Source of the DNA: a virus
Lineage: Duplodnaviria > Caudoviricetes
DNA length: 64,000 nt
Direction: 5' to 3' (one strand)
Virus record (IMG/VR): IMGVR_UViG_2721755344_000002
Span: 32,001-96,000 of that record
This document shows, piece by piece, positions 3,778 to 51,904 of this stretch; position 1 is the stretch's first letter; each line of letters starts with the position of its first letter. The notes below the pieces were generated by a model. That model did not search any database, was not told the origin of the DNA, and saw only the letters and a program-made list of their open reading frames with translations. The position numbers and the translations under genes were made by a program.

Positions 3778-4215
3778 TCACTTTACTATCATCATATACT
3801 TTGCTACTATTATTGGTCGTCCATGCTGTTCCCCCGTAGCTACAACCTTTCTAAACTTAACTTTTTTTACCACTGGACACCTTCTTCCAGCATCTTCCCA
3901 ATGGTTCGGCCATTTCATGCCATCAGTACACGTTTTCCAATAATAAGCGTCCCTCCGACGAGAAAAGATATGAAAACCTGATTCATACCTCAAGCGCTCA
4001 TAGTTCGACATACAATTAGGTTCTTCCTTCTTCGTTTGCCCCAAGAGGACACTGGAACGAGTATTACTTCTCTTGTTCCATACTCCTGTTTTATAAGAAA
4101 TATTATAAAACTGTGACCAATAATTCCAAAAATGGCGAGAGGAATAGTTACGATAAAACACTTTCCATCCAAACTTTTGTCTAATTGGTATAGGTTTTAC
4201 AGTGTCTAAACACAT
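3778..4215 (-). CDS. hypothetical phage protein
   Basis: 145-aa ORF with MCL start, YESGFHIF motif, GGTGA RBS. Confidence 0.6.
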   Translation of the reverse strand: MCLDTVKPIPIRQKFGWKVFYRNYSSRHFWNYWSQFYNISYKTGVWNKRSNTRSSVLLGQTKKEEPNCMSNYERLRYESGFHIFSRRRDAYYWKTCTDGMKWPNHWEDAGRRCPVVKKVKFRKVVATGEQHGRPIIVAKYMMIVK

Positions 4216-4534
4216 ATCAAGTCACCTTCACACCAACAGAAAAACCCATTGCGGAAGTTTTGTAAATAAATATCAATTTGCCATAATCGTAAATCCAATA
4301 AGCCCCACATGAATGATAGATGTCGCAAAAAAGAAATTTTTTTTTAAGATCATCGACACTCAAAACTTTTTCCATAAAATCAATCTTTAGAAACTACTCC
4401 TCCTATTGTTTTACACTCAGTAACAAAGTTGTATCTAGTAGCTGCAGACGCTCCTTTTCTTAGTTTTAAGATAAACCAAGAGTACCCGCATTTGACGCAT
4501 CTCCAAACACCCTGACCAAATTTTTGTTCGGTTT

Positions 4535-5428
4535 TTAATTCTCCTCCGCAACCTGGACATTCCATGTGTCACCTCGTAATCTCCATATACAATTATTTTT
4601 AAGTTGATTCAAAAGTTTTCTCCTCAAAATCAAATGATTTGTTCTACACGAATTATGATCCATTGGCTTAGTAATACCTGGATAGCACTCATCAATAAGG
4701 GCATAGTTTTTAGTTCTATCGTGCTCGGCACCAACATCATATTTTTTGCCTTTGAAATCTGTTGCCACTATCAATCCTGTATCTTGTAATACATCAAGTG
4801 AGTTTGACCAAAAAACTGTTTTGAATTGCGCTTTTGCATCTGCAGCTACTGAAAATGTTTGATCAAACGGATTTTCAGACCATTTGAAAAAGCCAAAAAA
4901 TCCAGTCCATTTATAAGTTCTTATTAATGGTTTTTCCCGATCATACGAGCTTTTTATCTTGTAATTGAGACTCGTTGTAAAATACGGAATGTTCCACGCT
5001 TTAGCAGTTCCTATCAGAACCTGTAGCTTTTTGGTATATATCTCAGCGTTCAATACACTAGTACGATACGCCCATCTTGTCGGTATAGCATCAGGCAAGA
5101 TATACCTGGTCATAATTATATCGTCATCTAATAGAACACCCGCATCCTCATCCCCCATATAACAACGCTTTAATAAATTCATTCCGTGCCAGCGTAGAGC
5201 CCCAAACGGAGGCTTTCCATCTGATGAGACAAAATCATGTCCCAAAATTTCTATTTCGTAACATTCCAACAAATCTTTAAAATCCTGTAATTGCGACCTA
5301 TGGCAAAATATCTTAATCTTATTCGATTCAACTCCAAGTCGATTAACAAGTATTCTTACTGTTTTAGCACACTTTTTTGGATATTTTGAAGCAATTAAAT
5401 AGTAAATTTGGTATGCCATTTTTCTCAC
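4535..5428 (-). CDS. putative GT-A fold glycosyltransferase-like protein
   Basis: N-terminal YYLIAS strand, 'GALRWHGM' followed by hydrophobic-LLDDDI (DxD-like) motif; own consensus promoter. Confidence 0.45.
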   Translation of the reverse strand: MRKMAYQIYYLIASKYPKKCAKTVRILVNRLGVESNKIKIFCHRSQLQDFKDLLECYEIEILGHDFVSSDGKPPFGALRWHGMNLLKRCYMGDEDAGVLLDDDIIMTRYILPDAIPTRWAYRTSVLNAEIYTKKLQVLIGTAKAWNIPYFTTSLNYKIKSSYDREKPLIRTYKWTGFFGFFKWSENPFDQTFSVAADAKAQFKTVFWSNSLDVLQDTGLIVATDFKGKKYDVGAEHDRTKNYALIDECYPGITKPMDHNSCRTNHLILRRKLLNQLKNNCIWRLRGDTWNVQVAEEN

Positions 5429-5439
5429 CTCGTATAGCC

Positions 5440-5468
5440 ATTATAGCATATCCAAAATTATTTGTCAA
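5440..5468 (-). promoter_or_regulatory. sigma70-type promoter
   Basis: TTGACA-17-TATAAT on minus strand. Confidence 0.85.
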
Positions 5469-5989
5469 GTCTTATTTTTGTGCAAGTCCACAAGAGACTT
5501 AAGCAATTTTATTATCTCCTCCAACTGTCGATTCATTTCCAACAGTATGTTAAAATCTTCCTGGTCCATCGCCATTTTTTATACCATCCCCAAATCAAAT
5601 GCTTCTATACCATCTGGACATTTTCTCCTATTAATCCACGCTATTTTACATCCTTTCCCTTAAGCTCCAAACTATTCCTATGAGAAGCATAAACAAACAG
5701 ATTCCTCCCCATACCCAACTAATCCAATGGACCTCTCCAACAAGAAGGAAAAGAAAACACGTGACTGTTACTCCACCAATTCCAACATATATCATACTCC
5801 TGCATATTTCTGACTTAGTCATTTTATCTCCAAATTAATCCATCTTAATTGTTTCCATTTCTCGCCCAGTAAATTTGACCTAAGATATCTTTAAACAACT
5901 TATACTCCGTTGTTTCAAAAAACAATGTTAAACCCCCAGCTTTTATATCTTCTTTAGTTGCAAACCTGTACATTTTTTCAACTAACTGT

Positions 5990-6220
5990 TCAGAGCTTAT
6001 CATCTAACTCCTCTTCTATTATAAATCTAACATATTCAAGGTGATAGCTAAACCAACCCTTTTCCCACATTCTATCCCATGTTTGCTGTTTGTACTCTTG
6101 ACACCAAGACTTGAAGTCCTTCTGGTACTTTTTCGGCACCTGTTTCCATAGAGCAGGAAACGGTGTATCATCCTCGTTAATCATTCTTGACAAGGCTTTT
6201 AAAAAATATTTACCATTCAT
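5990..6220 (-). CDS. hypothetical protein
   Basis: ORF; start moved to ATG 6220 because the TTG at 6271 is the -35 box. Confidence 0.55.
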   Translation of the reverse strand: MNGKYFLKALSRMINEDDTPFPALWKQVPKKYQKDFKSWCQEYKQQTWDRMWEKGWFSYHLEYVRFIIEEELDDKL

Positions 6221-6242
6221 ACTATCCCAACCCTTTCGCAAT

Positions 6243-6271
6243 ATCATAACATAATAAAATCTATTTGTCAA
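6243..6271 (-). promoter_or_regulatory. sigma70-type promoter
   Basis: TTGACA-17-TATGAT with TGn extension. Confidence 0.7.
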
Positions 6272-6330
6272 CCTGTTTTTGATTCAAAATCGACCTTCTT
6301 TAATTGCTATTAAGATAATAATCTTTTCAA

Positions 6331-7020
6331 TTATATTAGATATTTCTGAGAGCATAAGCAATCTAAATTTGTCCAAATTCCCTCGTTCCTAAGTTTTGAT
6401 CCCTTGCGTTGTCCACTTGTGGTACACAAAGGTCTAAACGGTAACCATACAGCACTATCGTTTTCGCAAACAATAATTTGACCTTTTCGACTTTTGCACC
6501 AACTGGCTAATACTTCATAATCCAAATCCTTCCCATATGGATACAATTTCTGGCCGATATAGGGAGGGTCAATAAACCATGTAGCCTCTATATCGGGGGC
6601 TATGGAATAGTCGCCGAGCAGAATTTCCCATGTACGAATTTTAGCAACGTCATCGGCTACTTTATTCCAATTCAAATTTTGATTACCTTTGAAACCACCA
6701 ACAAAATTTTTAGGAGTTGGACTACCTTGATTCAACATAAAACCTAGAAAATCTCTGGCCTCCTGAGGTTTGATATCAGGTATAGGAGCCTTTGCATCAG
6801 GATGTGGAAGATTTCTAATAAAGTCTAGATCTGAATTTTGCAACCATTTCAGCATAGAAACAATCACAGGATTTTTTTCAATTAAAATAACATGCCTACC
6901 AACACTATGTCTTAAAGCATAATTTGCTGCGCCAGAAAACGGCTCAATAATTATATTATAAATAGGGGCAGGATACTTTTTCCATATTTTTGATTTTGAA
7001 CCATAATAACTGAATATCAT
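6331..7020 (-). CDS. Dam-like (D12 class) DNA adenine methyltransferase
   Basis: FSYYGSK, IEPFSGAA (motif I), FIDPPY (motif IV). Confidence 0.85.
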   Translation of the reverse strand: MIFSYYGSKSKIWKKYPAPIYNIIIEPFSGAANYALRHSVGRHVILIEKNPVIVSMLKWLQNSDLDFIRNLPHPDAKAPIPDIKPQEARDFLGFMLNQGSPTPKNFVGGFKGNQNLNWNKVADDVAKIRTWEILLGDYSIAPDIEATWFIDPPYIGQKLYPYGKDLDYEVLASWCKSRKGQIIVCENDSAVWLPFRPLCTTSGQRKGSKLRNEGIWTNLDCLCSQKYLI

Positions 7021-7298
7021 ACAATGGTACTCTTCAGCATCTTAATCTCTTCTTCTAGATCTTTAATCTTAGTTTCAGCTTCAGATAATGGATGTTTTGG
7101 ACACTGTCTAATATGATCATATAGCACTTTACGTTTAACAGCATTCGTTCCAGGTGGATATCTATGGCCGCAATATACACAATTTATATACATACCACTT
7201 TGTAAATCATCAACCCATTTTTCAAGTCTAACTACTTCATTTTCAAGTTCTATTACTCTATCTGTAAGCTCTAAGTGCTCTTTCTGAACTACTGACAT
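7017..7298 (-). CDS. coiled-coil / zinc-finger protein
   Basis: CVYCGH...HIRQCPKHP flanked by heptad-rich helices. Confidence 0.6.
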   Translation of the reverse strand: MSVVQKEHLELTDRVIELENEVVRLEKWVDDLQSGMYINCVYCGHRYPPGTNAVKRKVLYDHIRQCPKHPLSEAETKIKDLEEEIKMLKSTIV

Positions 7299-7477
7299 TT
7301 GCTTTCTCCTTTCAAGTACCCAGTACCTTCAAAACTCTTATTTTCGCAAAAATGCTACAGCTACATTTCACACAAAGATAAAATCCGCTAGGTGTTAATC
7401 TTGATCTATGCGGTCTTGTTCTACCGCCACATCTGATACATTTATATTTTGATAGTTCTGATCTATCACTACCACAA

Positions 7478-7852
7478 TCAGTTGTACACATCTTTCCCTC
7501 CATTTCCCTCTGCCCAATATCGTATCATGGTTGGAAAACTCTTGTGTGGTGTCGCCATCGGAAATAATCGTTCAATAATTTTTACTTTCTTCCCCGCCAT
7601 AAATGCCATACCAATATCAAAAAGACAACCCTCACTTTTTCCATCCCAAGCGATGTGAATTTCGTCGGCCCATAAAATACCTTTTTTATTATCGGTGCAA
7701 ATTCTAAAACCAACCGAATCATTCTGATCTGTGTCCCGTGATGGCCAGTAAACCCTATTTCCGGTAGCTTCAAGACTTTTCACATATTCTTCAAGGATTT
7801 CTTTCCAATGTACATCAATATTTCTAACTGGACAGATTAAAAAAATTTTCAT
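7478..7852 (-). CDS. nucleoside 2-deoxyribosyltransferase-like protein
   Basis: KIFLICPV, VYWPSRD, ADEIHI, SEGCLFDIGMAF..GKK pattern. Confidence 0.65.
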   Translation of the reverse strand: MKIFLICPVRNIDVHWKEILEEYVKSLEATGNRVYWPSRDTDQNDSVGFRICTDNKKGILWADEIHIAWDGKSEGCLFDIGMAFMAGKKVKIIERLFPMATPHKSFPTMIRYWAEGNGGKDVYN

Positions 7853-7912
7853 TCTACCTCTATTTTTGATTTTGAACCGTAGTAGCTAAAGATCATTATT
7901 TAAACCTTAAAA

Positions 7913-7982
7913 ATACCATACCTTACCATACCGAACCTAACCGAACCAAACCTTACCAAACCAAACCTCACCCTACCGAACT
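7913..7982 (-). repeat. GGT-NN pentamer array C (14 units), putative guide ncRNA
   Basis: minus strand: AGT TC GGT AG GGT GA GGT TT GGT TT GGT AA GGT TT GGT TC GGT TA GGT TC GGT AT GGT AA GGT AT GGT AT; intergenic. Confidence 0.9.
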
Positions 7983-7988
7983 TAAAAT

Positions 7989-8888
7989 TTACCACTCATA
8001 CCCATCTGAATATAATTTTAAATCGCTCTTTTCGTTTATAAGAACAAATCCATTCTTCCACTTAGAATGACTGCTTTTTACAGTACTCCCATTATAGGTC
8101 ATTGAATCTTGAGAAAACATCCCTCCGCAATCCGCTCCAATATATTTCCCACTTTGATCGTTTCCCGAACCGAAATGATGACCGTGAGCACAAATCACAT
8201 TTTTGTGTTCGATTGCTATTATATCTAAAGGAGTTTTGATTGTCTGCTTTGAATAATTGGATGGATGGCAAATAATCCAATTTTTATCTTCCGTCATAGC
8301 ATACTTAATATTTGATGGAAAAACTCTAACCCCAACCAAATCTATTGGAACTAATTGATAAAAAAGATTTTTTACATCAAAGATGCTTCCCAAAGCTCTG
8401 AAAATTCTTATATCATGGTTTCCCAAAATAAAATAGATTTTTTCAAACTGATTCAACAAACACTCGAACAATTCCCTCCCCGCTTGGAGTTCAGTATCCC
8501 AATCCACTTTTACTCCTGTATTCATCCAAATCTTAAACTGGTCTTGATCAAAGAAATCTCCAGCTATCATAAGAGTTTTAATTTTTCTAATATCTGAAAT
8601 TTCGCAGAGTAACTGAAGCCATTCTTTGCTAGTATGAGGTATATGAAAATCCGCAACAATTAAACAAGGAAGAGGAATATACATTGTATTATCTTTTATC
8701 CATTCCAACGACATTTTAATAACTGTGTCAATAGTTGGAATTTTAATAAGATTTCTCTTCTCAGCTCTCTTCAATAAATCATCTTTTGTAAACCCAGCCA
8801 CGGAACTAAATTTCAAAATTTTAGATTTATTAGAAGAGTTACTAATACTTTTTTTACATTCACTAAATTTTAGATTTTTCATTTTCAC
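7989..8888 (-). CDS. calcineurin-like metallophosphoesterase
   Basis: ADFHIPH, GDFFD, GNHD, HGHH metal-binding motifs. Confidence 0.85.
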   Translation of the reverse strand: MKMKNLKFSECKKSISNSSNKSKILKFSSVAGFTKDDLLKRAEKRNLIKIPTIDTVIKMSLEWIKDNTMYIPLPCLIVADFHIPHTSKEWLQLLCEISDIRKIKTLMIAGDFFDQDQFKIWMNTGVKVDWDTELQAGRELFECLLNQFEKIYFILGNHDIRIFRALGSIFDVKNLFYQLVPIDLVGVRVFPSNIKYAMTEDKNWIICHPSNYSKQTIKTPLDIIAIEHKNVICAHGHHFGSGNDQSGKYIGADCGGMFSQDSMTYNGSTVKSSHSKWKNGFVLINEKSDLKLYSDGYEW

Positions 8889-8898
8889 CTCACTAAGT

Positions 8899-8963
8899 TA
8901 TCCATACCATACCAAACCGAACCGCACCTGACCGAACCCTACCATACCCGACCAAACCACACA
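8899..8963 (-). repeat. GGT-NN pentamer array B (13 units), putative guide ncRNA
   Basis: minus strand: TGT GT GGT TT GGT CG GGT AT GGT AG GGT TC GGT CA GGT GC GGT TC GGT TT GGT AT GGT AT GGA TA. Confidence 0.9.
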
Positions 8964-8996
8964 ACAGCCTGATAAGAAGAATATTAAGAATAATTG

Positions 8997-9076
8997 CATC
9001 CTTACCATACCATACCGAACCGAACCCCGCCTAACCATACACTACCATACCAAACCGAACCAAACCTTACCTAACT
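8997..9076 (-). repeat. GGY-NN pentamer array A (16 units), putative guide ncRNA; begins inside the last codons of the RAMP-like gene
   Basis: minus strand: AGT TA GGT AA GGT TT GGT TC GGT TT GGT AT GGT AG TGT AT GGT TA GGC GG GGT TC GGT TC GGT AT GGT AT GGT AA GGA TG. Confidence 0.9.
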
Positions 9077-9609
9077 TCTTTTAATTCTACATCGAAACGT
9101 CCGAATCTAGGTCTCCAATCACCGATACCAATCTTATGCCCAGTAATTTCCATAACACTCTCAACTATTTGCTTTGGAATATCATCATCCACAATTATCG
9201 TAAATTCTGCTTTCCACCCCTTTTTGAAAAGGGGCCTATGAATAGCCACTCTTCCCCCAGTTCTTGGAGGTCTCCTCCCATGACTAATATGAATATCGTC
9301 CCATATTTTTTTGTTGGGAATAAATCGGATTTTATTTTCTTCAATTAAAACACCAGCTATAAAATCTCCTGTCCATTTAGTAGCACCTTTCTTAACCAAT
9401 TTAGATGCTCCAAATTTGATAGCCGCAAGAAAATGTTCGTCTGGGATATAACAACCATCCTCGTCTTTATACACAACTTCATCAACTTTACTGGTCGCAT
9501 CTGTGGCTAATGATTTAGCTCTTTTTACACCTTTTGATTCTTCTTCCGAAATGGTATACTGGTTCTGAAGATAATCGACAATCCCTATACATTTTACTTT
9601 AATTTTCAT
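9067..9609 (-). CDS. stand-alone Cas7/RAMP-like RNA-binding protein (about 180 aa)
   Basis: N-terminal beta strand IKVKCIG, 'CYIPDEHFLAAIK' (RAMP YIP..slKG-like), RP..WKAEFTI, C-terminal glycine-rich loop GIGDWRPRFGRFDV; GGAGG RBS before ATG 9609. Confidence 0.7.
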   Translation of the reverse strand: MKIKVKCIGIVDYLQNQYTISEEESKGVKRAKSLATDATSKVDEVVYKDEDGCYIPDEHFLAAIKFGASKLVKKGATKWTGDFIAGVLIEENKIRFIPNKKIWDDIHISHGRRPPRTGGRVAIHRPLFKKGWKAEFTIIVDDDIPKQIVESVMEITGHKIGIGDWRPRFGRFDVELKEVR

Positions 9610-9634
9610 AGTATCCTCCATTTAATTTAATATT

Positions 9635-9664
9635 ATTATAACACAATTAAAAAGGTTTTGTCAA
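9635..9664 (-). promoter_or_regulatory. sigma70-type promoter for the RAMP-like gene and arrays
   Basis: TTGACA-18-TATAAT with TGn extended -10. Confidence 0.8.
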
Positions 9665-9665
9665 C

Positions 9666-10982
9666 TCAGCCCCACTCCTTTTGAACATTCTGAGTTCTTT
9701 TGGTTGAAAGTTCCGAATATCCCAAATCAACCCCAAACCCGCGCCTGCCTAACTTTTCCGCAACTCTGATTGTAGTACCGGATCCAGCAAACGGGTCTAA
9801 TACCGAACCTGCTATCCAACCTGCATTACATCCGCAGTCCGTTAGCTCGACTAACTTCTTCATATACTGACCCATATTCTTTTCTTTAAATTCTCTCGGG
9901 TCTCGAGGGTCGGGTCTAGGCTTATTAACTTTCGGATCATAATCACCTGAATATTCTGAATCATAAATTTTCTCTCTCGGCTTCCCACATTTCTTACAAA
10001 TAAACTCTGGGACACCAGCCAAAATCATAGGTCGAACAAGATCCTCGGGAAATATTGCGAAATGAGCCTCTCTAACTCCTTTTGTAGGAATCTTCCACAC
10101 ACATCGTTTATTACGACCTAGAGGGTTAAGATTATTAAAAATCCTTTGTCTTACTTTAACACCTCCGCTCACGCCTTCGGAATCATAATCTTTCCATCCC
10201 CTTCCCCCCTCATCATTTCCAGCTCTTGCATCATTGAGCGTAACAGAAGACATTGGCTCAAATTGCTGGTCAAAGAAATAGTCTTTCTTCTTAGCAAAGA
10301 AAAATACAGGCTCCCAGTCGACCGTAAACCTATCTTTTACGCTGTGAGGTAAGGTATTCGGTTTATGCCAAACAATTTTATTCCTAAGTATCCATCCTCT
10401 GTTTAACATCTCGATCACAAATCTTTCCGGAATACCTAACAAAGACTTTGGGGCAAACTTTTGAGAAGGAGGAGCTCCAAATCCGCCTATACCAACAGGA
10501 CGAGAATCAATTCCTCGAGGACCTTTTCTTTGAGTACCAGGTTTCTTTCCCTGATCACCTCCACTCCCTCCGTAACTATCTGATAAATTCACAAAAATTA
10601 TACCATCGTCTCTCAATACTCTTTTCACTTCATCAAATATATCGCACAAGTGCCTGATAAAGTCATCATAATGAGACTCGCATCCTAACTGCCCTTTCCA
10701 TGCGCCACACTTAGTACAATTTGAACGAGAACCATATTCAATTTTTTGTGCTTTAGGTGGCGGTCGATCTCCATACATTGAGTTTTGTGTTCCACCAGCT
10801 CTCATTCGATAATCAAAAGCCAGCTCTTCTGTAACCCAATCGTGGGGGCAATTCGGGGACCCGTCCCAAATCACATCTGGAATATCATACTTTCTGAGAG
10901 CGTAATACGGCGGGGAAGTGATAACGCAATTTATTGACTTATCCGCAAGCGGAATATGCCTTGCATCACAGTTAAATATCAT
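9666..10982 (-). CDS. N4/N6 DNA methyltransferase (beta class) with Cys-rich insertions
   Basis: TSPPY, GWILRNKIVWHKPN, HFAIFPE, LDPFAGSGT; CxxC inserts. Confidence 0.9.
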   Translation of the reverse strand: MIFNCDARHIPLADKSINCVITSPPYYALRKYDIPDVIWDGSPNCPHDWVTEELAFDYRMRAGGTQNSMYGDRPPPKAQKIEYGSRSNCTKCGAWKGQLGCESHYDDFIRHLCDIFDEVKRVLRDDGIIFVNLSDSYGGSGGDQGKKPGTQRKGPRGIDSRPVGIGGFGAPPSQKFAPKSLLGIPERFVIEMLNRGWILRNKIVWHKPNTLPHSVKDRFTVDWEPVFFFAKKKDYFFDQQFEPMSSVTLNDARAGNDEGGRGWKDYDSEGVSGGVKVRQRIFNNLNPLGRNKRCVWKIPTKGVREAHFAIFPEDLVRPMILAGVPEFICKKCGKPREKIYDSEYSGDYDPKVNKPRPDPRDPREFKEKNMGQYMKKLVELTDCGCNAGWIAGSVLDPFAGSGTTIRVAEKLGRRGFGVDLGYSELSTKRTQNVQKEWG

Positions 10983-11006
10983 CCTACGCTTTCTAAATTT
11001 GGTCTT

Positions 11007-11216
11007 TTATTCCACCACTACATTGATTGCTTGTGGACCTTTGGGACCTTCTTGAATCTCGAAATCTACCTTGTCGCCTTCGTTCAGGGATTTAAAACCC
11101 TCCCTCTGAATAGCTGAGAAGTGAACGAATACATCGCTACCATCTTCTCTGGAAATAAATCCGAAACCCTTCTTCTCGTTAAACCACTTAACACTACCTT
11201 TCGTAAATATCACCTC
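11007..11216 (-). CDS. csp: cold-shock domain protein (start codon uncertain)
   Basis: [35 protein letters not shown]. Confidence 0.92.
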
Positions 11217-11229
11217 CTTTCTATTTTTA

Positions 11230-11322
11230 TGGGGACAGGCGGGGGACATAACGGACTCAAACCGAGTTCTTGGTATAACTTCACCCCCGAGGAACCTGAA
11301 CCTGCTTTCGCCACTGTCCCCA
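11230..11322 (-). ncRNA. tRNA-like structured element upstream of csp
   Basis: 9-bp terminal stem TGGGGACAG/CTGTCCCCA, GTGGCGAAA D-like start, CGG-TTTGAGT-CCG T-like arm. Confidence 0.4.
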
Positions 11323-11384
11323 CTAATATTTCACCTTCTATCATCGTCACTAAAATTCACTAGAACTCCCTGAATACTTTCTCT

Positions 11385-11981
11385 TCATACTTCGTCCCCC
11401 CAAACTTCCCACTTTTCATCTCTTTTCCTAGCAAAAAGTTCAATTCTTTTTCCTATAGGATATAAATCTTCAATCATCTTCCTAAACTTAGGAGGTTTCT
11501 CGGAATGTTTACCTCTATGTATTGAGACAACACTTGGATATAATTTCCGACGGTCTGGCAGGCAACTTCCTTTAGTAGCTACCAATAAAAACTCGTGACG
11601 CAACGAGTTGTAGTGAGCGAAATTGTGAGTCATCTTATCCCAAACGAACGAACTTTTGTATTTGAACCCCCAAGCATTAATTACCTTAAAAGCATCTTCC
11701 AGTAATGGAGAAGTTACCCAAAGAAATAAAACAGCATTATCTTCTGTTCGTATCTTTAAATTACAAATTTCTTCAAGACTCATCGTTCCATAATGATGCT
11801 CTGCTGCTCCATATCCATCTACTAGTTTATCACCATATTGCCAAGGCGGGTCAGCATAAACCACACGAAATTTATCGCTGGAAAGAGATTTATTTGTTTT
11901 TTCTCTTATATCATCTTGAAAAAATGTATCTTGATTAGGATTCTTAATCCTGCGCTTAGGAAATTTTTTTGATAGTTGCAT
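11385..11981 (-). CDS. MT-A70 family adenine methyltransferase
   Basis: YADPPW, LFLWVT, WGFKY, HEFLLV, HSEKP, IELFAR, WGDE. Confidence 0.92.
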   Translation of the reverse strand: MQLSKKFPKRRIKNPNQDTFFQDDIREKTNKSLSSDKFRVVYADPPWQYGDKLVDGYGAAEHHYGTMSLEEICNLKIRTEDNAVLFLWVTSPLLEDAFKVINAWGFKYKSSFVWDKMTHNFAHYNSLRHEFLLVATKGSCLPDRRKLYPSVVSIHRGKHSEKPPKFRKMIEDLYPIGKRIELFARKRDEKWEVWGDEV

Positions 11982-11982
11982 T

Positions 11983-12795
11983 CTACTCCGAGTTTAATCC
12001 CAAATCGAATGATTCTTTATACCAATCGGGCACACTTGACCTTATCTCTTCTATATTATGTGGTTTTCCCACATTAAACCCTCTTCCCAAAAGCCACCAA
12101 ACCATTTCGGTACTATTAAAATATACCCTACCCGTAGATTTTATTCCACCTTCTGGCTCAATATTACCGGTATCCAATTCCCAATCAGGAATTTTTACTA
12201 TAACTGAAAGTTCGTCTGCAAACTGGGATGTACCTTCCTTACTTTTCAATATACAAAATACTCCTGGTTCTACAACTAGATCATATCCTTTTAATTCAAA
12301 AAATTTGTCATGGAAATCATCTTTATTTTTAACCAATACTCTCACATATAACTTAGAATGTTTCGCCAGATAACCAAGAGTTTTATAAAAATTGTTGCTG
12401 TCGGTAAACAAAAATTCCTTTCGATTATAGGAATTTCCTTTGCGAGCATCAGCCCTTCTCGACTTATTCTTATCATCACTAAAATTTTTTAAATATCTTT
12501 CGTTCGTATTTTCTAATAAAACCTGCGGAGAAATAGAAGTTCTAATTTCTTCCCCATCTTTTCCTCGTCTTACTATAACTACCTCATCGTTTGTGATAGA
12601 CTCAATCGTATAATACCCCGAGTTATCCATGTAAGTTTCGCCTACCCGCAAACCTAAAATCTTAATCTCTGCTAATTTGTATTCTGCAAAGCTGTCAAAA
12701 TCGTCCCTGTCTAGTGCAATATCTTTATCTTCTTCATCATTTAAATTTATTTCTTTTACCTCTTTCACATCTTCTTTTACCTCAACATTTTCCAT
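11983..12795 (-). CDS. hypothetical protein
   Basis: 270-aa ORF with GGAGG RBS and acidic N-terminus. Confidence 0.7.
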   Translation of the reverse strand: MENVEVKEDVKEVKEINLNDEEDKDIALDRDDFDSFAEYKLAEIKILGLRVGETYMDNSGYYTIESITNDEVVIVRRGKDGEEIRTSISPQVLLENTNERYLKNFSDDKNKSRRADARKGNSYNRKEFLFTDSNNFYKTLGYLAKHSKLYVRVLVKNKDDFHDKFFELKGYDLVVEPGVFCILKSKEGTSQFADELSVIVKIPDWELDTGNIEPEGGIKSTGRVYFNSTEMVWWLLGRGFNVGKPHNIEEIRSSVPDWYKESFDLGLNSE

Positions 12796-13205
12796 TTTTT
12801 CTCTCCTCCCGTATCATTATTTTCATAACATCATTCTACATAGATATCTTCTCCACTCTCTATCGCTTCTTTAGCTTGAATCCAACCTTCAACTTGGCAA
12901 CTGTTCTCTTTATAGTTTAGTTTCTTCTCTTCGATCTTCTCATAGAAAATAGCAACTCTTAACGCAGATAATAAATTTTCTCGCAATATTTTCATCATTT
13001 AAAAACTATTGCCTCTTAAACCTAGCCGGTGTGTGTTGGTCATTCCAAATAGTCTGCCCAAAAGCGTAACGTATGGCCTGAGATATAATAACTCTCATAA
13101 ACCAGACTCCCCCTAATGAAGCAATACAAAGAAGAACATACAAAATAGCATCCATTGAACTCTTTTTAGTTTCCATCTCATACTCCTTTCATTTAATTTA
13201 TAATT

Positions 13206-13234
13206 ATCATATCACAAAAAAAGGAGATTGTCAA
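13206..13234 (-). promoter_or_regulatory. sigma70-type promoter
   Basis: TTGACA-17-TATGAT. Confidence 0.75.
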
Positions 13235-13427
13235 GCTATATTTTATAAATAATTCGTATGTAATATCAAATACTTAGCTTGTTGAAAATCAACTTTTGCC
13301 GTAAGGAATTGATTCATTACACCGCCCGCAAATTGGACAGTAACAAGTCCATCCAGCTAAAACTGCACCGCACCTTGAACAATAATCATATCTTGGAATC
13401 ATAGTCAGGGTCTCACTTTCCCTCCTT

Positions 13428-14480
13428 TCACTTAACCATACAAACCACATCTTCCCAATCTATTCTAGGAGCGCCTTTCTTTTCCTGTAATCTTCGGAAA
13501 AAGCTTTTTCTCTCTTTGGTAAATTCAGCACCGTCAAATGCAGTTTGAGGATCATTATTTACTAACATTGCATAATGCCAACATACTATTTTAAAACCAA
13601 CAGACTCACATAAAGAAGCCCACGTATCAGAAAAATTAATTCTAGTCTTATTCCTTATATAATCCTTTGTAACCCAAATTGCATGCCCATCAGGTTTTAA
13701 CAAATTATAGCATTCTTGAATTATCTCACGAGAAGCCAACCAAAAGTCATCGCCAGCTATGCTACCCAAATTATCTTTATTATCTTTATTGTACCCTTCC
13801 CACGTTTTATTTTTACGATCTATTTTTCTTTGCTCTCTATCTGCTTGCTTAGATGAGCAAATTTCCGATGCTCCGTATGGAGGACTCGACATTATCAAAT
13901 CTGCCTTCATATTAGAAAGATTTCCTGGAGTACAACCGTAGGCATTTTGATAACGTAATTGACCGCATCCTATTCTACCATGCCCCGCTTTTGTTGCTAA
14001 TTCTTGACGTCTTGCATGGTTTTCAGGTTTATCACTCCCAGACAAACTATTTGCATAAGGAGGACTCGACATTACCAAATCAGCCTTATCAATCAGCTCC
14101 TTTAACTTTCTTGAATCCCCTTGAATAATTTTTGCTGTTCCTCTATATAGATGGAAAGGACGGCTTTCGCAAAGTTCCTTATCCAGTCCTTCCCACTTTT
14201 TAATATTTTTTCTGCCTAATTCTACAAATTTTTTCTCGATCTCTATTCCTATCCAATGTGCCCCTCTCGTCATAGCACCAAAACCTCCCAATGCTACTCC
14301 TCCAAACGGGTCGAGAACAATGTTGCCCTTCTTCAACCATTCATTATCAACAGCATGATTGTATATCTTCTCAACTAAGGCACAGCTAAACTTTGCTGGA
14401 TGACAAAAAGCATCACTAACTATGGAATCTTTCCATCCGGTTTCGTAACAATTCCTCCATACATCTGTCTCAAATATCAA
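13428..14480 (-). CDS. amino-DNA methyltransferase (paralog of 50978-51904)
   Basis: HPAKF, LDPFGG, GIEIE, two SSPPY motifs. Confidence 0.85.
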   Translation of the reverse strand: MIFETDVWRNCYETGWKDSIVSDAFCHPAKFSCALVEKIYNHAVDNEWLKKGNIVLDPFGGVALGGFGAMTRGAHWIGIEIEKKFVELGRKNIKKWEGLDKELCESRPFHLYRGTAKIIQGDSRKLKELIDKADLVMSSPPYANSLSGSDKPENHARRQELATKAGHGRIGCGQLRYQNAYGCTPGNLSNMKADLIMSSPPYGASEICSSKQADREQRKIDRKNKTWEGYNKDNKDNLGSIAGDDFWLASREIIQECYNLLKPDGHAIWVTKDYIRNKTRINFSDTWASLCESVGFKIVCWHYAMLVNNDPQTAFDGAEFTKERKSFFRRLQEKKGAPRIDWEDVVCMVK

Positions 14481-15718: not shown

Positions 15719-17053
15719 CTAAAAAAATGTTTTTTGCAATGGAGCTTTCAACCTTTTTTGAATAATTTTACAGTATCCTTCGTCTTTCTCAATCCCAACA
15801 GCTTTTCTATTAAGTTTCTTTGCTGCTACCAGAGTTGAACCCGAACCTGCAAACGGATCAAGTATTAAACTCAGATTCTTCCTACTTACTAAATTTAGTA
15901 ACCATTTCATCAACTCCACAGGTTTAACTGTTGGATGGAAGTTCTTTCTCTTGCTCTCCGCACCCCTGTTTCTTGGGTTTGTTCCGCCCAGACTTCCTTC
16001 TTCCCTACCTTCATCCATGAACTCTCCATTTTCCTGCTCGAGTCCCAAGTCCCTTTCTTCCTTATCCGCCTTAGCGCAGTAAAAAAACCGTGATGCTGAA
16101 CCTGAACTAGCTTCTCCTATCCATTTAGTTTTACCTGATGGTTTACCCAACGAAAAACCAGTATTAGTGTATTCATAAGACTTTAGCATAGCACCTGATT
16201 GCTGCTCTGGAAATAGCTCTTCAACTTCTTCACTACCGTCGTGGACTAAGTTAGCTGGAAATCTACCCTTAGAATTTTGCTCATAAAGATTTGGAGTCCC
16301 ATCTTGAAACATCCCTAACGCTTTTCCTTCTCGTGAGTCTCCGCTAAAAGTTCTCAACGGACCTCCGTGAGTTAATATATCTTCTGTCTTAACTCTACAC
16401 TCATCAATATTTATAGCTCCTGTTCCATACTTCAAAACATTCTCTGCTACTGTTCCAATTACTAGCTTTCTGAAAACTAGTATAGGCTCCCAGGCAGGCT
16501 TTAACGCTGTTCCCCACCCCTCCCATTCTTTAGCTTCGGAAGTTGCCGGAATTGTAATCTCACTTGACAATCTCTCTTTCATCATTGCTTTTTCACTCTC
16601 GTATCCTCCCCCTCTGATATCTTGCATCGTCTGGGATTTATGTCCTATAACTTCCCTTTCCGCACCTTTCATCTTGTCAATGGCCTTACTCACGTCCAAA
16701 CTCTTGGGGAAGCCCGACCCGTACACCCACATAATAGTATCTCGAAATTCAAACCCAGCATCCTCGATTGCACAGGCTAAACGATGAAACGTTCTTGTTC
16801 CCCCAAAGACTAGTAAATACCCTCCTGGCTTTACTACTCTCAGAGCTTCTACAGCCCATTGATAATGAAATTGATAAGATGGTTGACCTTTCCCACTTTT
16901 ATCCCATTTTTTTGACATGAAACCGAGCAAATACGGAGGATCCGTTACGATCGCATCAAACGAGTTTTCATCAAACCCCTTCATTACTTCGATACAATCC
17001 CCACAGTACAACTTTACTAAATTATCTTCGTAATCAATCAAATATTTTATCAC
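15719..17053 (-). CDS. N6/N4 DNA methyltransferase (beta class)
   Basis: TDPPY, YGSGFPKS, LKPAWEP, HPTVKP, LDPFAGSGST. Confidence 0.92.
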   Translation of the reverse strand: MIKYLIDYEDNLVKLYCGDCIEVMKGFDENSFDAIVTDPPYLLGFMSKKWDKSGKGQPSYQFHYQWAVEALRVVKPGGYLLVFGGTRTFHRLACAIEDAGFEFRDTIMWVYGSGFPKSLDVSKAIDKMKGAEREVIGHKSQTMQDIRGGGYESEKAMMKERLSSEITIPATSEAKEWEGWGTALKPAWEPILVFRKLVIGTVAENVLKYGTGAINIDECRVKTEDILTHGGPLRTFSGDSREGKALGMFQDGTPNLYEQNSKGRFPANLVHDGSEEVEELFPEQQSGAMLKSYEYTNTGFSLGKPSGKTKWIGEASSGSASRFFYCAKADKEERDLGLEQENGEFMDEGREEGSLGGTNPRNRGAESKRKNFHPTVKPVELMKWLLNLVSRKNLSLILDPFAGSGSTLVAAKKLNRKAVGIEKDEGYCKIIQKRLKAPLQKTFF

Positions 17054-18273: not shown

Positions 18274-19836
18274 TTACATAGATTCATAGCAATCATTCCA
18301 ACTAAGTTGGGTCGTTTTAGAACGCTCTGACGATAATTCGTGATATCCCAAATCAAGGGATACTCCTATTCTTCCTAACTTTCTAGCAGTTTTCATTGTA
18401 GTTCCGCTTCCCCCAAATGGATCAAGCACCAATCCTGGCTTCCAGGGGATATTTATGTCAAAATCTGAACAACCACACTTTTCGCAAATTATTTTACCAG
18501 AAACCATTCCAGACAATGGGGGCAACGTATCTTCCCCTGATGAAATTTTTTTATCCGAATTAGAAAGATATATAATATTCCCGCAACGAATACAAGTCAG
18601 TTCTCTACATCCGCAATCCGATAATCCTTTATCAACCCGTTTAGTTTCTCTAGATGCCCACACTCTTTCTTTTTCATCCAAAGTCATATCTTCTGAAATT
18701 TCGAGCCAGTCGCTTTTGTCATATTCTATCACTCGAGCTCGAGGTTGTCCGCAAGCTTTACAAATGAACTCTGGGCAACCAGCTTTAATTATTTCTTCGC
18801 ACAACTTCTCTGGAAAGCAAGCGTAATGGGCTTCTCTATATGGTTTAGTTGGAATCTTCCATATACATCTTTTAATTCTGCCTTCTGGATTAGGACGCAT
18901 ATTTCTAGCCCTATACCAACTTTGGCCGGTCCCCTCATCCCAAGTACTTACTCCTTTCGGTATGAGAGTTTCTCCACCCCACCTATCCATAGACTTTTCG
19001 TATTTCTCTAGAGGCTGGTCAAACCAATAATTTTTTGATTTTACGAGGAAAAAGATGTATTCAAAATCAACAGAAAATCTATCTCGAGCACTATTTGGAA
19101 TACCGTTAGGCTTCTGCCAAATAATTGTATTCCTTAATCTCCACCCCTTGTCTATCATTTTAGTAACTAATCTAAACGGAATACCGCATAAAGACTTATC
19201 TTGAATTTGAGTCTTTGGTTGATCAAGTCTAAATTTTTCTGACTTCCCAAACTTATTACTTCTAAACGATGAGTTGCAAACTCCTTCTTTTAAACTTCCG
19301 GAAACGGTAGAATAAGTATCTCCAATATTTAAAAAGAATATACCATCGTCCCGCATTACTCTCCATACTTCATCAAATATCTGAATTAAATGCTCAATAT
19401 ATAAATCAAACGTAGGCTCAAGTCCTAACTGCCCTTTCCATGCACCACACTTCTTACAGAAAAAGCCTGAATCCCATATTGTGTCTCCCGCACTTCCAAT
19501 ATCTTTAGTAACACCCAATACTGTCATACTACTCGAGCTCACACCATGAGAAGGCTTCTTACCTAAAAATTTTATCTGCTCTCCCCAATCATGCTCGCAA
19601 TTCGGGTCGTCATCCCAAATCTGGTCGGGAATATCATATTTTCGGAGGAACCAATAAGGAGGGGACGTAAAGACGCAACTTATTGTTTTGTCTTTTAGAG
19701 GAATAAACCTCGAGTTGCCTTTTATATTAAAAGTCCTTACCGACTCTTTTAGAGATTTCTTACACTTTTCAAGTCCTAGCAGATCACTAACCATCTCGTT
19801 TAGCTCGTTGATACTTTCCACGCCTACCAGTATCAA
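18274..19836 (-). CDS. N4/N6 DNA methyltransferase with multiple Zn-finger-like insertions (paralog of 9666-10982)
   Basis: TSPPY, CGAWKGQLG, GWRLRNTIIWQKPN, LDPFGGSGT. Confidence 0.9.
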   Translation of the reverse strand: MILVGVESINELNEMVSDLLGLEKCKKSLKESVRTFNIKGNSRFIPLKDKTISCVFTSPPYWFLRKYDIPDQIWDDDPNCEHDWGEQIKFLGKKPSHGVSSSSMTVLGVTKDIGSAGDTIWDSGFFCKKCGAWKGQLGLEPTFDLYIEHLIQIFDEVWRVMRDDGIFFLNIGDTYSTVSGSLKEGVCNSSFRSNKFGKSEKFRLDQPKTQIQDKSLCGIPFRLVTKMIDKGWRLRNTIIWQKPNGIPNSARDRFSVDFEYIFFLVKSKNYWFDQPLEKYEKSMDRWGGETLIPKGVSTWDEGTGQSWYRARNMRPNPEGRIKRCIWKIPTKPYREAHYACFPEKLCEEIIKAGCPEFICKACGQPRARVIEYDKSDWLEISEDMTLDEKERVWASRETKRVDKGLSDCGCRELTCIRCGNIIYLSNSDKKISSGEDTLPPLSGMVSGKIICEKCGCSDFDINIPWKPGLVLDPFGGSGTTMKTARKLGRIGVSLDLGYHELSSERSKTTQLSWNDCYESM

Positions 19837-50977: not shown

Positions 50978-51904
50978 CTACTCCTTTCTCATACAAATAA
51001 TATCTTCCCAATCTATCTTTGGAGCCCCTTGCTTCTCTACCAATCTTCTAAAAAAGCTCTTTCGCTGTTTAACCTTATCCTCCCCAATCCATATAGATTG
51101 AGCTACTCCTACCATCGTAGCTAGATGCCTGCATACTAAAATAAAACCAATATCTTCACACAAAGCAAGCCACGTATCGCTAAATGGTACTCGTTGCCCT
51201 TTTCTAACATAATCTTTAGTATTCCAAATAGCATACCCTCCAGGCTTGAGCAGTTCGTAACACTGCTCTAATATAACCCTTGCACCACTCCAAAAAGCAT
51301 CGCCTTTCTCGTTGCCTAAATTTTTACTTGAAGCTTCCGCATATTGAAAGTTTGTAACCTTTTTGCCTGCAAGCTTATCTCTACCCACAATTCCGTAATC
51401 TCCGTGCCCGCTTGCAGACGACTCATATGGAGGGCTACTTATGCATATATCTATTTTCCCGCTCACATATTTTTTCAACTCCATAGAATTACCAGCCATA
51501 AGAACAGCTAAGTTTTTCTTCCACTCCAACATCCCTTCCCACAATAAAATATTTTGCTTACCTATATTTGCAAAATTCTCCTCGAGCTCAATCCCTACCC
51601 AAAACACATCCTGAATCATCGCATCCAAACCTCCAAGAGCAATACCTCCAAACGGATCTATTACCCTTGAATTTCTTGCTAACCACCCGTTTTCTATTGC
51701 GTGAGCGTAGATCCTCTGTATCACTCCCCTAGCAAATTTAGCAGGGTGATCGTCAACAATAAGACCCCTCCAATTTTGATTAAAACATTCTTCCCATTTA
51801 TCGGGATAACTGCTCTCTACCAAAACGTCTCCCTTTGTTGCTAATCCAAAGCAAATGAGTTCCGTCGGATCGTCTCGTTCGACTCCTGAAAGTCGTGATA
51901 TCAA
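50978..51904 (-). CDS. amino-DNA methyltransferase (paralog of 13428-14480)
   Basis: HPAKF, IDPFGG, GIELE, SSPPY, KSFFRRL.EK.GAP.IDWED. Confidence 0.85.
   Translation of the reverse strand: MISRLSGVERDDPTELICFGLATKGDVLVESSYPDKWEECFNQNWRGLIVDDHPAKFARGVIQRIYAHAIENGWLARNSRVIDPFGGIALGGLDAMIQDVFWVGIELEENFANIGKQNILLWEGMLEWKKNLAVLMAGNSMELKKYVSGKIDICISSPPYESSASGHGDYGIVGRDKLAGKKVTNFQYAEASSKNLGNEKGDAFWSGARVILEQCYELLKPGGYAIWNTKDYVRKGQRVPFSDTWLALCEDIGFILVCRHLATMVGVAQSIWIGEDKVKQRKSFFRRLVEKQGAPKIDWEDIICMRKE

What the first reader, a model, noticed from the sequence alone, without database searches (positions are those of the whole stretch)
7913..9076. The NN dinucleotides look like information: a possible gapped (wobble-skipping) target code
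Read in plus-strand (target-sense) order, the variable dinucleotides are: C = AT AT TT AT GA TA GA AA TT AA AA TC CT GA; B = TA AT AT AA GA GC TG GA CT AT CG AA AC; A = (CA) TT AT AT GA GA CC TA AT CT AT AA GA AA TT TA. All three strings differ, and identical neighbours run at most two units, unlike microsatellite slippage. If each NN is codon positions 1-2 with the third base skipped, they spell protein-like strings: about IILIDYEKLKKSLE, YIIKEA(W/C)ELIRKT and LIIDDPYILIKEKLY. That would give targeting that is immune to synonymous escape. I found no such peptide by eye in this window's ORFs, so any targets are probably elsewhere (competing phages or host). Caveat: AT-rich dinucleotides easily give plausible peptides.
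Basis: inference. Interest (0 to 1): 0.88.

Follow-up and report, generated by a model that had tools for sequence, protein, structure and literature searches.

The report
Phage VIPR guide-RNA arrays
The three runs of five-base GGT-NN repeats are guide RNAs of a phage VIPR system, a CRISPR-like RNA-guided gene silencer first described in 2026 preprints.

Summary
Three arrays of 13-15 GGY-NN pentamers lie on the minus strand at 7913-7977, 8899-8963 and 8997-9071. They occur nowhere else in this 114-kb uncultivated soil/groundwater phage.

The 184-aa gene just upstream (9067-9621, minus) is a Vipr protein. It matches the solved SUSP1 Vipr by sequence (E 7e-12; profile 3.6e-25) and folds like Cas7. 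The locus is therefore a VIPR system (bioRxiv 10.64898/2026.04.26.720920, .720927 and 2026.10.15.759431).

The gapped-code reading is supported here directly:
- Guide B, read as NN-x-NN, matches 12 of its 13 units (24/24 bases) at the start codon of a 94-aa gene in an unrelated phage of roughly 150 kb.
- The skipped bases fall on codon position 3.
- Across target variants, 4 of 9 skipped positions vary against 1 of 20 read positions.

Guide C has a probable target (11 of 13 units, also at a start codon). Guide A has none. No guide targets the phage's own genome.

Local peculiarities are a metallophosphoesterase gene embedded between the arrays, conserved in three loci, and no structured 3' tail.

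This scan has already found VIPR loci in other genomes. Verdict: a new member of a known kind.

The parts
9635..9664 (-). Candidate promoter of the VIPR module, in the 44-nt gap between the methyltransferase stop and the vipr start
   Evidence: Perfect sigma-70 consensus TTGACA-18-TATAAT with an upstream TG, 12/12. This is a consensus match only. No terminator-like site was found on the minus strand of the stretch scanned (7300-9800).
9067..9621 (-). vipr gene: 184-aa minimal Cas7-like RAMP protein (P0001)
   Evidence: Sequence: phrog_4652, the same family as the 195-aa gene of the Felixounavirus VIPR locus (29% identity, E 8e-17). It hits PDB 36pp_D 'SUSP1 Vipr protein' at E 7e-12 alone and 3.6e-25 as a profile. 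Fold: AF2 pLDDT 83; top Foldseek matches are Cas7/Csm3/Cmr4, prob 1.0, TM about 0.55. Residues: the G-loop GIGDWRPRFGRF and R129 are invariant.
8997..9071 (-). vrRNA array A, 15 GGYNN units (NN 5'->3': AA TT TC TT AT AG AT TA GG TC TC AT AT AA TG); one more degenerate unit reaches 9076
   Evidence: Parsed. Two scaffold units are degenerate (TGT, GGC). No target was found.
8964..8996 (-). Spacer between arrays A and B; possible short 3' tail of vrRNA A
   Evidence: Only a weak AU-rich hairpin is predicted, no better than shuffles (z -1.3). It lacks the GC hairpin seen after the arrays of other Vipr relatives.
8899..8963 (-). vrRNA array B, 13 units (NN: GT TT CG AT AG TC CA GC TC TT AT AT TA); it runs to within 10 nt of the Shine-Dalgarno sequence of the next gene
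   Evidence: Units 2-13 match L040 11376-11410 at 24/24 bases with a 1-nt skip. Units 2-11 match L041-L043 exactly.
7989..8888 (-). Metallophosphoesterase gene (297-299 aa) embedded between arrays B and C; candidate accessory gene
   Evidence: Family: Pfam Metallophos E 5.5e-8 and phrog_221. Catalytic motifs DxH, GD, GNHD and GHxH are intact. Synteny: the order vipr-arrays-MPE-array is kept in L011 (63% identity) and vipr-arrays-MPE in L052 (40% identity), with different flanking genes.
7913..7977 (-). vrRNA array C, 13 perfect GGT units (NN: AG GA TT TT AA TT TC TA TC AT AA AT AT); a degenerate unit AGT-TC lies at 7978-7982
   Evidence: Parsed. Units 3-13 match L044 5582-5613 at 22/22 bases, 23/26 over the whole guide, at the start codon of a 99-aa ORF.

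Best explanation
This is a VIPR (Viral Interference Programmable Repeat) locus of an uncultivated lytic-type phage.

**Proposed mechanism.**
1. A strong promoter upstream of vipr drives one transcript: vipr, array A, array B, metallophosphoesterase, array C (inferred).
2. Vipr, a minimal Cas7-like RAMP, polymerises on each array, one protomer per pentamer. It buries every GGY and exposes every NN (shown for SUSP1 by cryo-EM; inferred here from homology and conserved contact residues).
3. The exposed dinucleotides pair with double-stranded DNA that carries the same dinucleotides separated by one unread base.
4. In coding DNA the unread base is the wobble position, so synonymous changes do not break recognition.
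5. Binding silences transcription of the target (shown for SUSP1; inferred here).

**Targets.** Guide B is aimed at the start-codon region of a 94-aa membrane/coiled-coil gene of an unrelated phage of about 150 kb with similar GC content. Guide C is probably aimed at the start of a 99-aa gene that follows the portal gene of another phage. The system is therefore a weapon against co-infecting rival phages.

**Accessory gene.** The embedded metallophosphoesterase is probably a clade-specific accessory gene. Its role is unknown.
For: **The arrays.** They are real, unique to this locus and on the coding strand. The scaffold is nearly invariant and the NN are variable.

**The protein.** The adjacent 184-aa protein hits the solved SUSP1 Vipr, belongs to the same PHROG as the Felixounavirus protein and folds like Cas7. 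Of the residues that hold GGY in the cryo-EM structure, the equivalents of R138, D177, W178 and R179 are present and invariant here as R129, D168, W169 and R170.

**Relatives.** 23 of 24 IMG/VR loci that encode relatives carry GGY-NN arrays on the same strand beside the gene. The NN differ completely in the 54%-identical locus L011.

**Guide B target.**
- Four exact 10-unit hits, one of them extending to 12 units or 24/24 bases.
- My estimate of the chance expectation for the 24-base match is 1e-3 to 1e-2. The collection's size is not stated and I assumed about 1e11 bases.
- Six other 10- or 11-unit patterns gave no hit in the same collection, and the seventh gave only the guide C hit described below.
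- The match is in frame, with the skipped bases on codon position 3, and it covers the ATG of a gene that ENA assemblies call independently as 94 aa.
- Across four target variants, 1 of 20 read positions varies against 4 of 9 skipped positions in the coding part.

**Guide C.** 11 of 13 units match at the start codon of an ORF, in frame.

**No self-targeting.** No match in the phage's own genome exceeds the shuffled controls.

**Independent support for the rule in this Vipr clade.** A guide of relative L017 hits a gene of L019 at 21/22, in frame on wobble. None of 200 shuffles reached this score, and skips of 0 and 2 gave at most 0.83.
Against: - No RNA data exist for this phage, so the transcripts, their ends and the Vipr-RNA complex are all inferred.
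- The arrays lack the conserved structured 3' tail that caps vrRNAs in SUSP1 and in most relatives.
- Guide A has no target.
- Guide C's seed is so AT-rich that I estimate 1-4 seed hits by chance. Only its placement at a start codon and its frame argue that it is real.
- Guide B's first (degenerate) unit does not match its target.
- H17 of SUSP1 Vipr is N20 here.
Confidence: 0.9

Rival explanations
1. The arrays are binding sites for a ring- or filament-forming RNA-binding protein that regulates the flanking genes in cis. This would resemble the TRAP protein, which binds GAG/UAG triplets separated by 2-nt spacers. The NN would then be meaningless spacers.
For: The form is the same: a conserved triplet plus two free bases, in 13-15 copies, sitting in the 5' leaders of the metallophosphoesterase gene and of the 124-aa gene. 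Array B ends about 10 nt before a Shine-Dalgarno sequence. The comparison with TRAP rests on my own knowledge of that system.
Against: The NN of guide B spell a 24/24 gapped match to a foreign gene start. The neighbouring protein is a Vipr homologue, not a TRAP-like protein. A cis-regulatory side effect of Vipr binding next to the ribosome-binding site is not excluded.
Confidence: 0.04
2. The guide B and guide C matches are chance hits. The locus is a VIPR-type locus, but the natural targets of these guides are unknown.
For: The collections are huge, and two other 10-unit seeds gave hits that are clearly chance. L039 is the rho start region of a high-GC bacterium. L045 is an Ignavibacteria MAG contig. 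Guide C is very AT-rich.
Against: The chance hits neither extend beyond the seed nor sit in frame. The B hit extends to 12 units, occurs in four related contigs plus six ENA contigs despite wobble differences, is in frame and sits on a start codon. The C hit is also in frame on a start codon.
Confidence: 0.05
3. The arrays are structural DNA or RNA repeats with no guide role: slipped microsatellites, two-tier G-quadruplex formers (G2N3), or a recombination or replication site.
For: The period is 5 bp and the minus strand is G-rich. (GGNNN)n can in principle form two-quartet quadruplexes, which I state from my own knowledge.
Against: Microsatellite slippage would make the units alike, yet 13 different NN types occur. 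The arrays always accompany a Vipr gene across distant phages and switch from GGT to GGC with genome GC content. The target matches are not explained by this reading.
Confidence: 0.01

Closest known systems
Type II VIPR system of Escherichia phage SUSP1 and Felix O1-like phages (Vipr + Vap1 + vrRNAs; bioRxiv 10.64898/2026.04.26.720920 and .720927; PDB 36pp)
   Same: It has a homologous Vipr protein (29% identity) with an identical G-loop core (GDWRPRFGRF). It has GGY-NN arrays of 13-15 units on the gene strand, both after and between genes. It follows the 1-nt skip rule with wobble alignment, and it targets other mobile elements. Array B even aligns by blastn to the Felixounavirus arrays.
   Different: There is no vap1 homologue (phrog_5926) at this locus. 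A metallophosphoesterase lies between the arrays instead. There is no pseudoknot or hairpin tail. The host phage is an uncultivated one of at least 114 kb from soil and groundwater, with no nucleotide match to known phages beyond the array itself. The targets found are lytic-type phages, not a satellite or prophage.
Cas7 backbone subunits of Class 1 CRISPR effectors (type VII Cas7, Csm3, Cmr4)
   Same: It has the same RRM/RAMP fold with a G-loop and a thumb hairpin (Foldseek prob 1.0, TM about 0.55). One protomer binds each short RNA period and flips bases out of the guide.
   Different: Sequence identity is only 9-16%. No CRISPR repeat-spacer array or other cas gene was seen around the locus (ORFs 4000-14000 listed; nine neighbouring proteins scanned). 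The period is 5 nt with 2 read bases rather than 6 nt with 5 read bases. The guide is written inside the repeat itself.
TRAP (trp RNA-binding attenuation protein) binding sites
   Same: It is an RNA made of a conserved triplet plus a 2-nt spacer, repeated about a dozen times and wrapped by a protein oligomer (from my own knowledge).
   Different: In TRAP sites the spacer bases carry no information, and the protein is unrelated. Here the two free bases are the message.

Membership tests
VIPR system | vrRNA arrays of 9-16 tandem GGY-NN (YNNGG) pentamers with a conserved scaffold and variable NN | tested here: met
   There are three arrays of 13-15 units. G1 is G in 39/41, G2 in 41/41 and position 3 is a pyrimidine in 39/41. 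The NN entropy is 1.6-1.9 bits.
VIPR system | Adjacent gene for a Vipr protein: about 20 kDa, a minimal RAMP with RRM core, G-loop and thumb | tested here: met
   The 184-aa protein hits PDB 36pp_D SUSP1 Vipr at E 7e-12 alone and 3.6e-25 as a profile. Its fold is Cas7-like. The G-loop GIGDWRPRFGRF is present.
VIPR system | Residues that hold GGY in the SUSP1 structure (H17, R138, D177, W178, R179) | tested here: met
   R129, D168, W169 and R170 align to R138, D177, W178 and R179 and are invariant in 11 homologues. H17 aligns to N20, a position that is N or H in most of the 11 homologues.
VIPR system | NN hypervariable between homologous loci while GGY is kept | tested here: met
   L011 (Vipr 54% identical, same gene order) shares none of the guides. 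23 of 24 viral relatives have arrays with their own NN.
VIPR system | Natural targets that match under the 1-nt skip rule, with the skipped base on the codon wobble position | tested here: met
   Guide B matches L040 at 24/24, in frame, at a start codon, and the variants differ mainly at skipped positions. Guide C matches at 23/26, in frame. Guide A has no target. Other skip lengths were tested only on the phage's own genome and on fetched loci, not on the collections.
VIPR system | No self-targeting of the carrier genome | tested here: met
   The best self matches with a 1-nt skip are 20-21/26-30, within the shuffled controls.
VIPR system | Conserved, structured 3' tail (pseudoknot or hairpin) after each array | tested here: not met
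   The 3' flanks of the three arrays, and of those of L011, fold no better than shuffles (z -1.3 to +1.4). They share no GC hairpin, unlike L012-L022 and the Felix-like phages. L052 shows the same lack. This may be a subclade trait, because the preprint says array architectures vary between types.
VIPR system | Accessory vap gene in the operon | tested here: inconclusive
   There is no phrog_5926 (the family of the gene that follows vipr in phage fjerdesal, taken here to be vap1) at this locus. A metallophosphoesterase occupies the operon in three loci (window, L011, L052). The word 'phosphoesterase' does not occur in the held text of either of the two preprints searched for it, and their supplements are not held.
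VIPR system | vrRNAs expressed and bound by Vipr; target transcription silenced | not testable with these tools
   No RNA run holds this phage. This needs bench work.
CRISPR-Cas | Repeat-spacer array with contiguous spacers, plus cas genes | tested here: not met
   Rfam gave only a sub-threshold CRISPR-DR8 match, on the opposite strand inside the metallophosphoesterase gene (19 bits against a gathering score of 39). No other cas family was found among the neighbours.

The most novel reading that the evidence does not exclude
This locus and its two relatives (L011, L052) may define a VIPR subtype not characterised in the preprints. In this subtype the vrRNAs have no structured tail and lie inside a protein-coding operon, where they serve as the leaders of downstream genes. 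An active metallophosphoesterase is the effector or an RNA-processing partner. That would add an enzymatic step, such as cutting the bound DNA or maturing the guides, to what is otherwise a pure silencer in a lytic phage. A related point is that both targets found here cover a start codon with the guide antisense to the mRNA. That would also allow translation to be blocked at the RNA level.
Probability: 0.3. Interest if true: 0.55.

Novelty: new member of a known kind. Interest (0 to 1): 0.4.

Why it matters
VIPR was described only in 2026 and mostly in coliphage and Pseudomonas prophage models. This locus adds a natural guide-target pair between two uncultivated environmental phages. The logic of skipping the wobble base is directly visible here: the guide stays matched across target variants that differ at third codon positions. 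This supports the idea that phage-against-phage silencing by RNA guides is widespread in soil and groundwater viromes. The repeated pairing with a metallophosphoesterase, and the absence of a structured tail, are leads on how these systems vary. As a kind of system it is not new, and this scan has already met VIPR loci in several other genomes.

Tried and rejected
**Exact 1-nt-skip scans with no hit.**
- Guide B units 1-10 in viral contigs. It failed because the degenerate first unit does not pair with the target.
- Guide C including the degenerate 5' unit and C units 1-10.
- Guide A units 2-11, and A units 2-13 with unit 7 left open.

**Hits judged to be chance.**
- B units 1-10 in metagenome contigs gave one hit, L039, at the rho start region of a high-GC bacterium. 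It is out of frame and does not extend.
- A units 5-14 in genome contigs gave one hit, L045, in an Ignavibacteria MAG. It scores 21/30 and is out of frame.

**Other target searches.**
- Guides A and C against the two target-phage records that are held: none with up to 3 mismatches. Those records are only 9-13% complete.
- Guides of relatives against the target contigs: nothing above background.

**Steps the tools could not take.**
- No RNA holder is listed among the sequencing runs. Laid contigs only show the same phage, identical, in soil, sediment and groundwater runs.
- The contig of a further metallophosphoesterase homologue (P0017) has no DNA on hand.

**Searches that gave nothing usable.**
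- The AF2 model of the metallophosphoesterase reached only pLDDT 45, so I ran no fold search on it.
- PADLOC and NCBIfam gave nothing useful for the three locus proteins.
- Rfam gave nothing at gathering score.

**Ideas considered early and dropped** once the Vipr homology and the target appeared: a TRAP-like cis-regulatory site, a G-quadruplex former, a Rho-utilisation site on the antisense strand, a Chi-like or primase site, and a translated repeat.

Full report
**Observation**

The plus strand between 7913 and 9076 holds three runs of NN-ACC pentamers. All genes of the window lie on the minus strand (GC skew about -0.3 throughout). In the sense of transcription the runs therefore read (GGT-NN)n.

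A four-unit pattern with at most one mismatch matches 32 times, against 0.13 expected from shuffles, and every match lies in these runs. The whole 114,307-bp virus record has no further copy.

Parsed in the GGYNN register, the arrays are as follows:

| Array | Coordinates | Units |
|---|---|---|
| A | 8997-9071 | 15 |
| B | 8899-8963 | 13 |
| C | 7913-7977 | 13 |

Over the 41 units, G1 is G in 39, G2 in 41 and position 3 is a pyrimidine in 39. The two free positions carry 1.59 and 1.87 bits of entropy, with 13 different dinucleotides.

**Context**

The arrays are intergenic. On the minus strand the order is:
- a DNA methyltransferase (9666-10982);
- a perfect sigma-70 consensus promoter (9664-9635);
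- a 184-aa gene (9067-9621);
- array A, a 33-nt spacer and array B;
- a metallophosphoesterase gene (7989-8888);
- array C;
- a 124-aa gene of unknown function.

No terminator-like site was found on the minus strand of the stretch scanned, 7300-9800.

The record is an IMG/VR virus contig estimated 87% complete. It carries terminase, ribonucleotide reductase, clamp loader, SbcC-like and many methyltransferase genes. It has no close cultured relative. The same sequence occurs unchanged in soil, sediment and groundwater metagenomes from several studies.

**What it is**

A blastn search of the region found only array B, aligned to similar arrays in Felix O1-like phages, where one is annotated merely as 'repeat_region'.

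A literature search led to a 2026 preprint that describes VIPR systems. In these systems:
- A phage-encoded minimal RAMP protein, Vipr, binds vrRNAs made of 9-16 GGY-NN pentamers followed by a structured tail.
- The NN pair with double-stranded DNA while one target base per unit is skipped.
- The skipped base usually falls on the codon wobble position.
- The natural targets are competing phages and satellites.

A companion cryo-EM paper shows one Vipr protomer per pentamer and names the residues that hold GGY. A third paper shows competition between a phage and its satellite, and orphan guides that stand without a vipr gene.

**The protein**

The 184-aa protein (P0001) is a Vipr homologue. The evidence is:
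- It belongs to phrog_4652, as does the 195-aa gene of the Felixounavirus locus. The two proteins are 29% identical (E 8e-17).
- It hits PDB 36pp 'SUSP1 Vipr protein' at E 7e-12 alone and 3.6e-25 as an 11-sequence profile.
- Its AlphaFold model (pLDDT 83) matches Cas7-family subunits: type VII Cas7, Csm3 and Cmr4, with probability 1.0 and TM about 0.55.
- The C-terminal G-loop GIGDWRPRFGRF and R129 are invariant among homologues. They align with R138, D177, W178 and R179 of SUSP1 Vipr. H17 corresponds to N20.

**Relatives**

- Twenty-three of 24 IMG/VR loci that encode relatives carry GGY-NN arrays on the gene strand beside the gene. The scaffold is GGT in low-GC phages and GGC in high-GC phages.
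- The closest relative, L011 (Vipr 54% identical), has the same order: vipr, two arrays, metallophosphoesterase, array. Its NN are entirely different.

**Testing the code at this locus**

No guide matches the phage's own genome above shuffled controls at any skip length. The only exception is the trivial match of each array to itself at skip 3.

Exact scans of the public collections with 10-unit patterns at a 1-nt skip at first found nothing. Leaving out the degenerate first unit of guide B then gave four viral contigs, L040-L043.

In L040 the match runs over units 2-13, which is 24 of 24 read bases. I estimate a chance expectation of 1e-3 to 1e-2 for this match. The collection's size is not stated, and I assumed about 1e11 bases. 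Six other patterns of the same or greater specificity gave no hit in the same collection, and a seventh gave only the guide C hit described below.

On the coding strand the site reads TAT ATT ATG AAC GAG GCT TGG GAA CTA ATT CGT AAT. That is six bases upstream, the start codon and nine codons of a 94-aa protein that has an N-terminal hydrophobic helix and a coiled coil. ENA assemblies call the same 94-aa gene independently.

The read bases are codon positions 1 and 2 and the skipped bases are position 3.

Four distinct target variants were recovered. In the coding part, one of 20 read positions varies (CGT to AGT, arginine to serine). Four of nine skipped positions vary, and one of those changes glutamate to aspartate without touching the read bases.

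The target contigs carry primase, DnaB, UvsX, dCMP deaminase and ribonucleotide reductase genes. They are 9-13% complete fragments, which implies a phage of about 150 kb. They are not kin of the window's phage: only RNR at 26% and dCMP deaminase at 28% identity.

Guide C, units 4-13, gave one contig, L044:
- The match extends to 11 of 13 units (23/26).
- It covers nine bases upstream, the ATG and seven codons of a 99-aa ORF that follows a portal gene, again in frame with the skip on wobble.
- The seed is very AT-rich and the contig is 31% GC, so I estimate one to four seed hits by chance.
- The start-codon placement makes the hit probable but not proven.

Guide A has no target.

Two seed hits elsewhere show what chance looks like. 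They are L039, a high-GC rho start region, and L045, an Ignavibacteria MAG contig. Neither extends beyond the seed and both are out of frame.

As an independent check of the rule in this Vipr clade, I scanned 80 guides from all fetched loci against 645 kb of fetched sequence. One outlier appeared at skip 1. A guide of L017 matches a 144-aa gene beside the VIPR locus of L019 at 21/22, in frame on wobble. Skips 0 and 2 reached at most 0.83, and none of 200 guide shuffles reached this score.

**Local peculiarities**

1. The 3' flanks of the arrays have no conserved or stable structure. Most relatives end each array with 'GGAAC' plus a GC hairpin, or with the Felix-type tail. L011 and L052 also lack such a structured tail.
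2. The metallophosphoesterase has intact catalytic motifs.
   - It keeps its place after vipr and the arrays in L011 (63% identity) and in L052. In L052 Vipr is only 38.5% and the esterase 40% identical, and the flanking genes differ.
   - More distant members of this large phage esterase family stand without vipr or arrays.
   - It therefore looks like an accessory gene recruited in one VIPR subclade. Its role is unknown, and the structure model failed.
3. In both targets the ATG lies three or four units from the guide's 3' end. This would explain why all three arrays end in AT/AA/AT units.

**Verdict**

The locus is a member of the VIPR family, with one defining feature (the structured tail) not met and the accessory gene unresolved.

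It is a new member of a known kind. This scan has already reported VIPR loci in other genomes, and the same stretch was noted by first readers in overlapping windows.

Noticed in passing
window 7914-7977 (array C), seen in run X7: A 1,403-nt groundwater contig holds an exact 59-nt copy of array C in a different sequence context. About 50 nt away it has a second array that differs at 12 positions. This could be a related locus, or an orphan ('solo') vrRNA on another element.
   Followed up: no
L017 3703-3757 and L019 3184-3215: A guide of one IMG/VR phage matches a 144-aa gene (L019 2923-3357) next to the VIPR locus of another phage at 21/22 read bases with a 1-nt skip, in frame on wobble. This looks like cross-targeting between VIPR-carrying phages.
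   Followed up: partly
window 6331-7020, 9666-10982, 11385-11981, 13428-14480, 15719-17053, 18274-19836, 50978-51904: At least seven DNA methyltransferase-like genes (N6_N4, MT-A70 and others) lie in one window. That is an unusually heavy anti-restriction load around the VIPR locus.
   Followed up: no
L046-L051 1501-1530 (target gene of guide B): The most abundant variant of the target protein has serine instead of arginine at codon 9 (AGT for CGT). This is the only change at a read position in the coding footprint, and it is a possible escape variant.
   Followed up: partly
L011 4924-5049: In the closest relative, a 41-aa very basic ORF with its own Shine-Dalgarno sequence lies between the first two arrays. 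It has no counterpart in the window.
   Followed up: no
L040 11471-11434 and 11025-10998: The targeted 94-aa gene sits alone between a strong intrinsic terminator and a perfect sigma-70 consensus promoter that serves the next genes. The guide footprint begins 24 nt after the terminator's T-run.
   Followed up: partly
window 27568-30138 and 57529-59022: The 856-aa terminase-like ORF matches terminase profiles only at its two ends. The 497-aa ribonucleotide reductase ORF matches its profile in two stretches. These may be split or intein-bearing genes.
   Followed up: no
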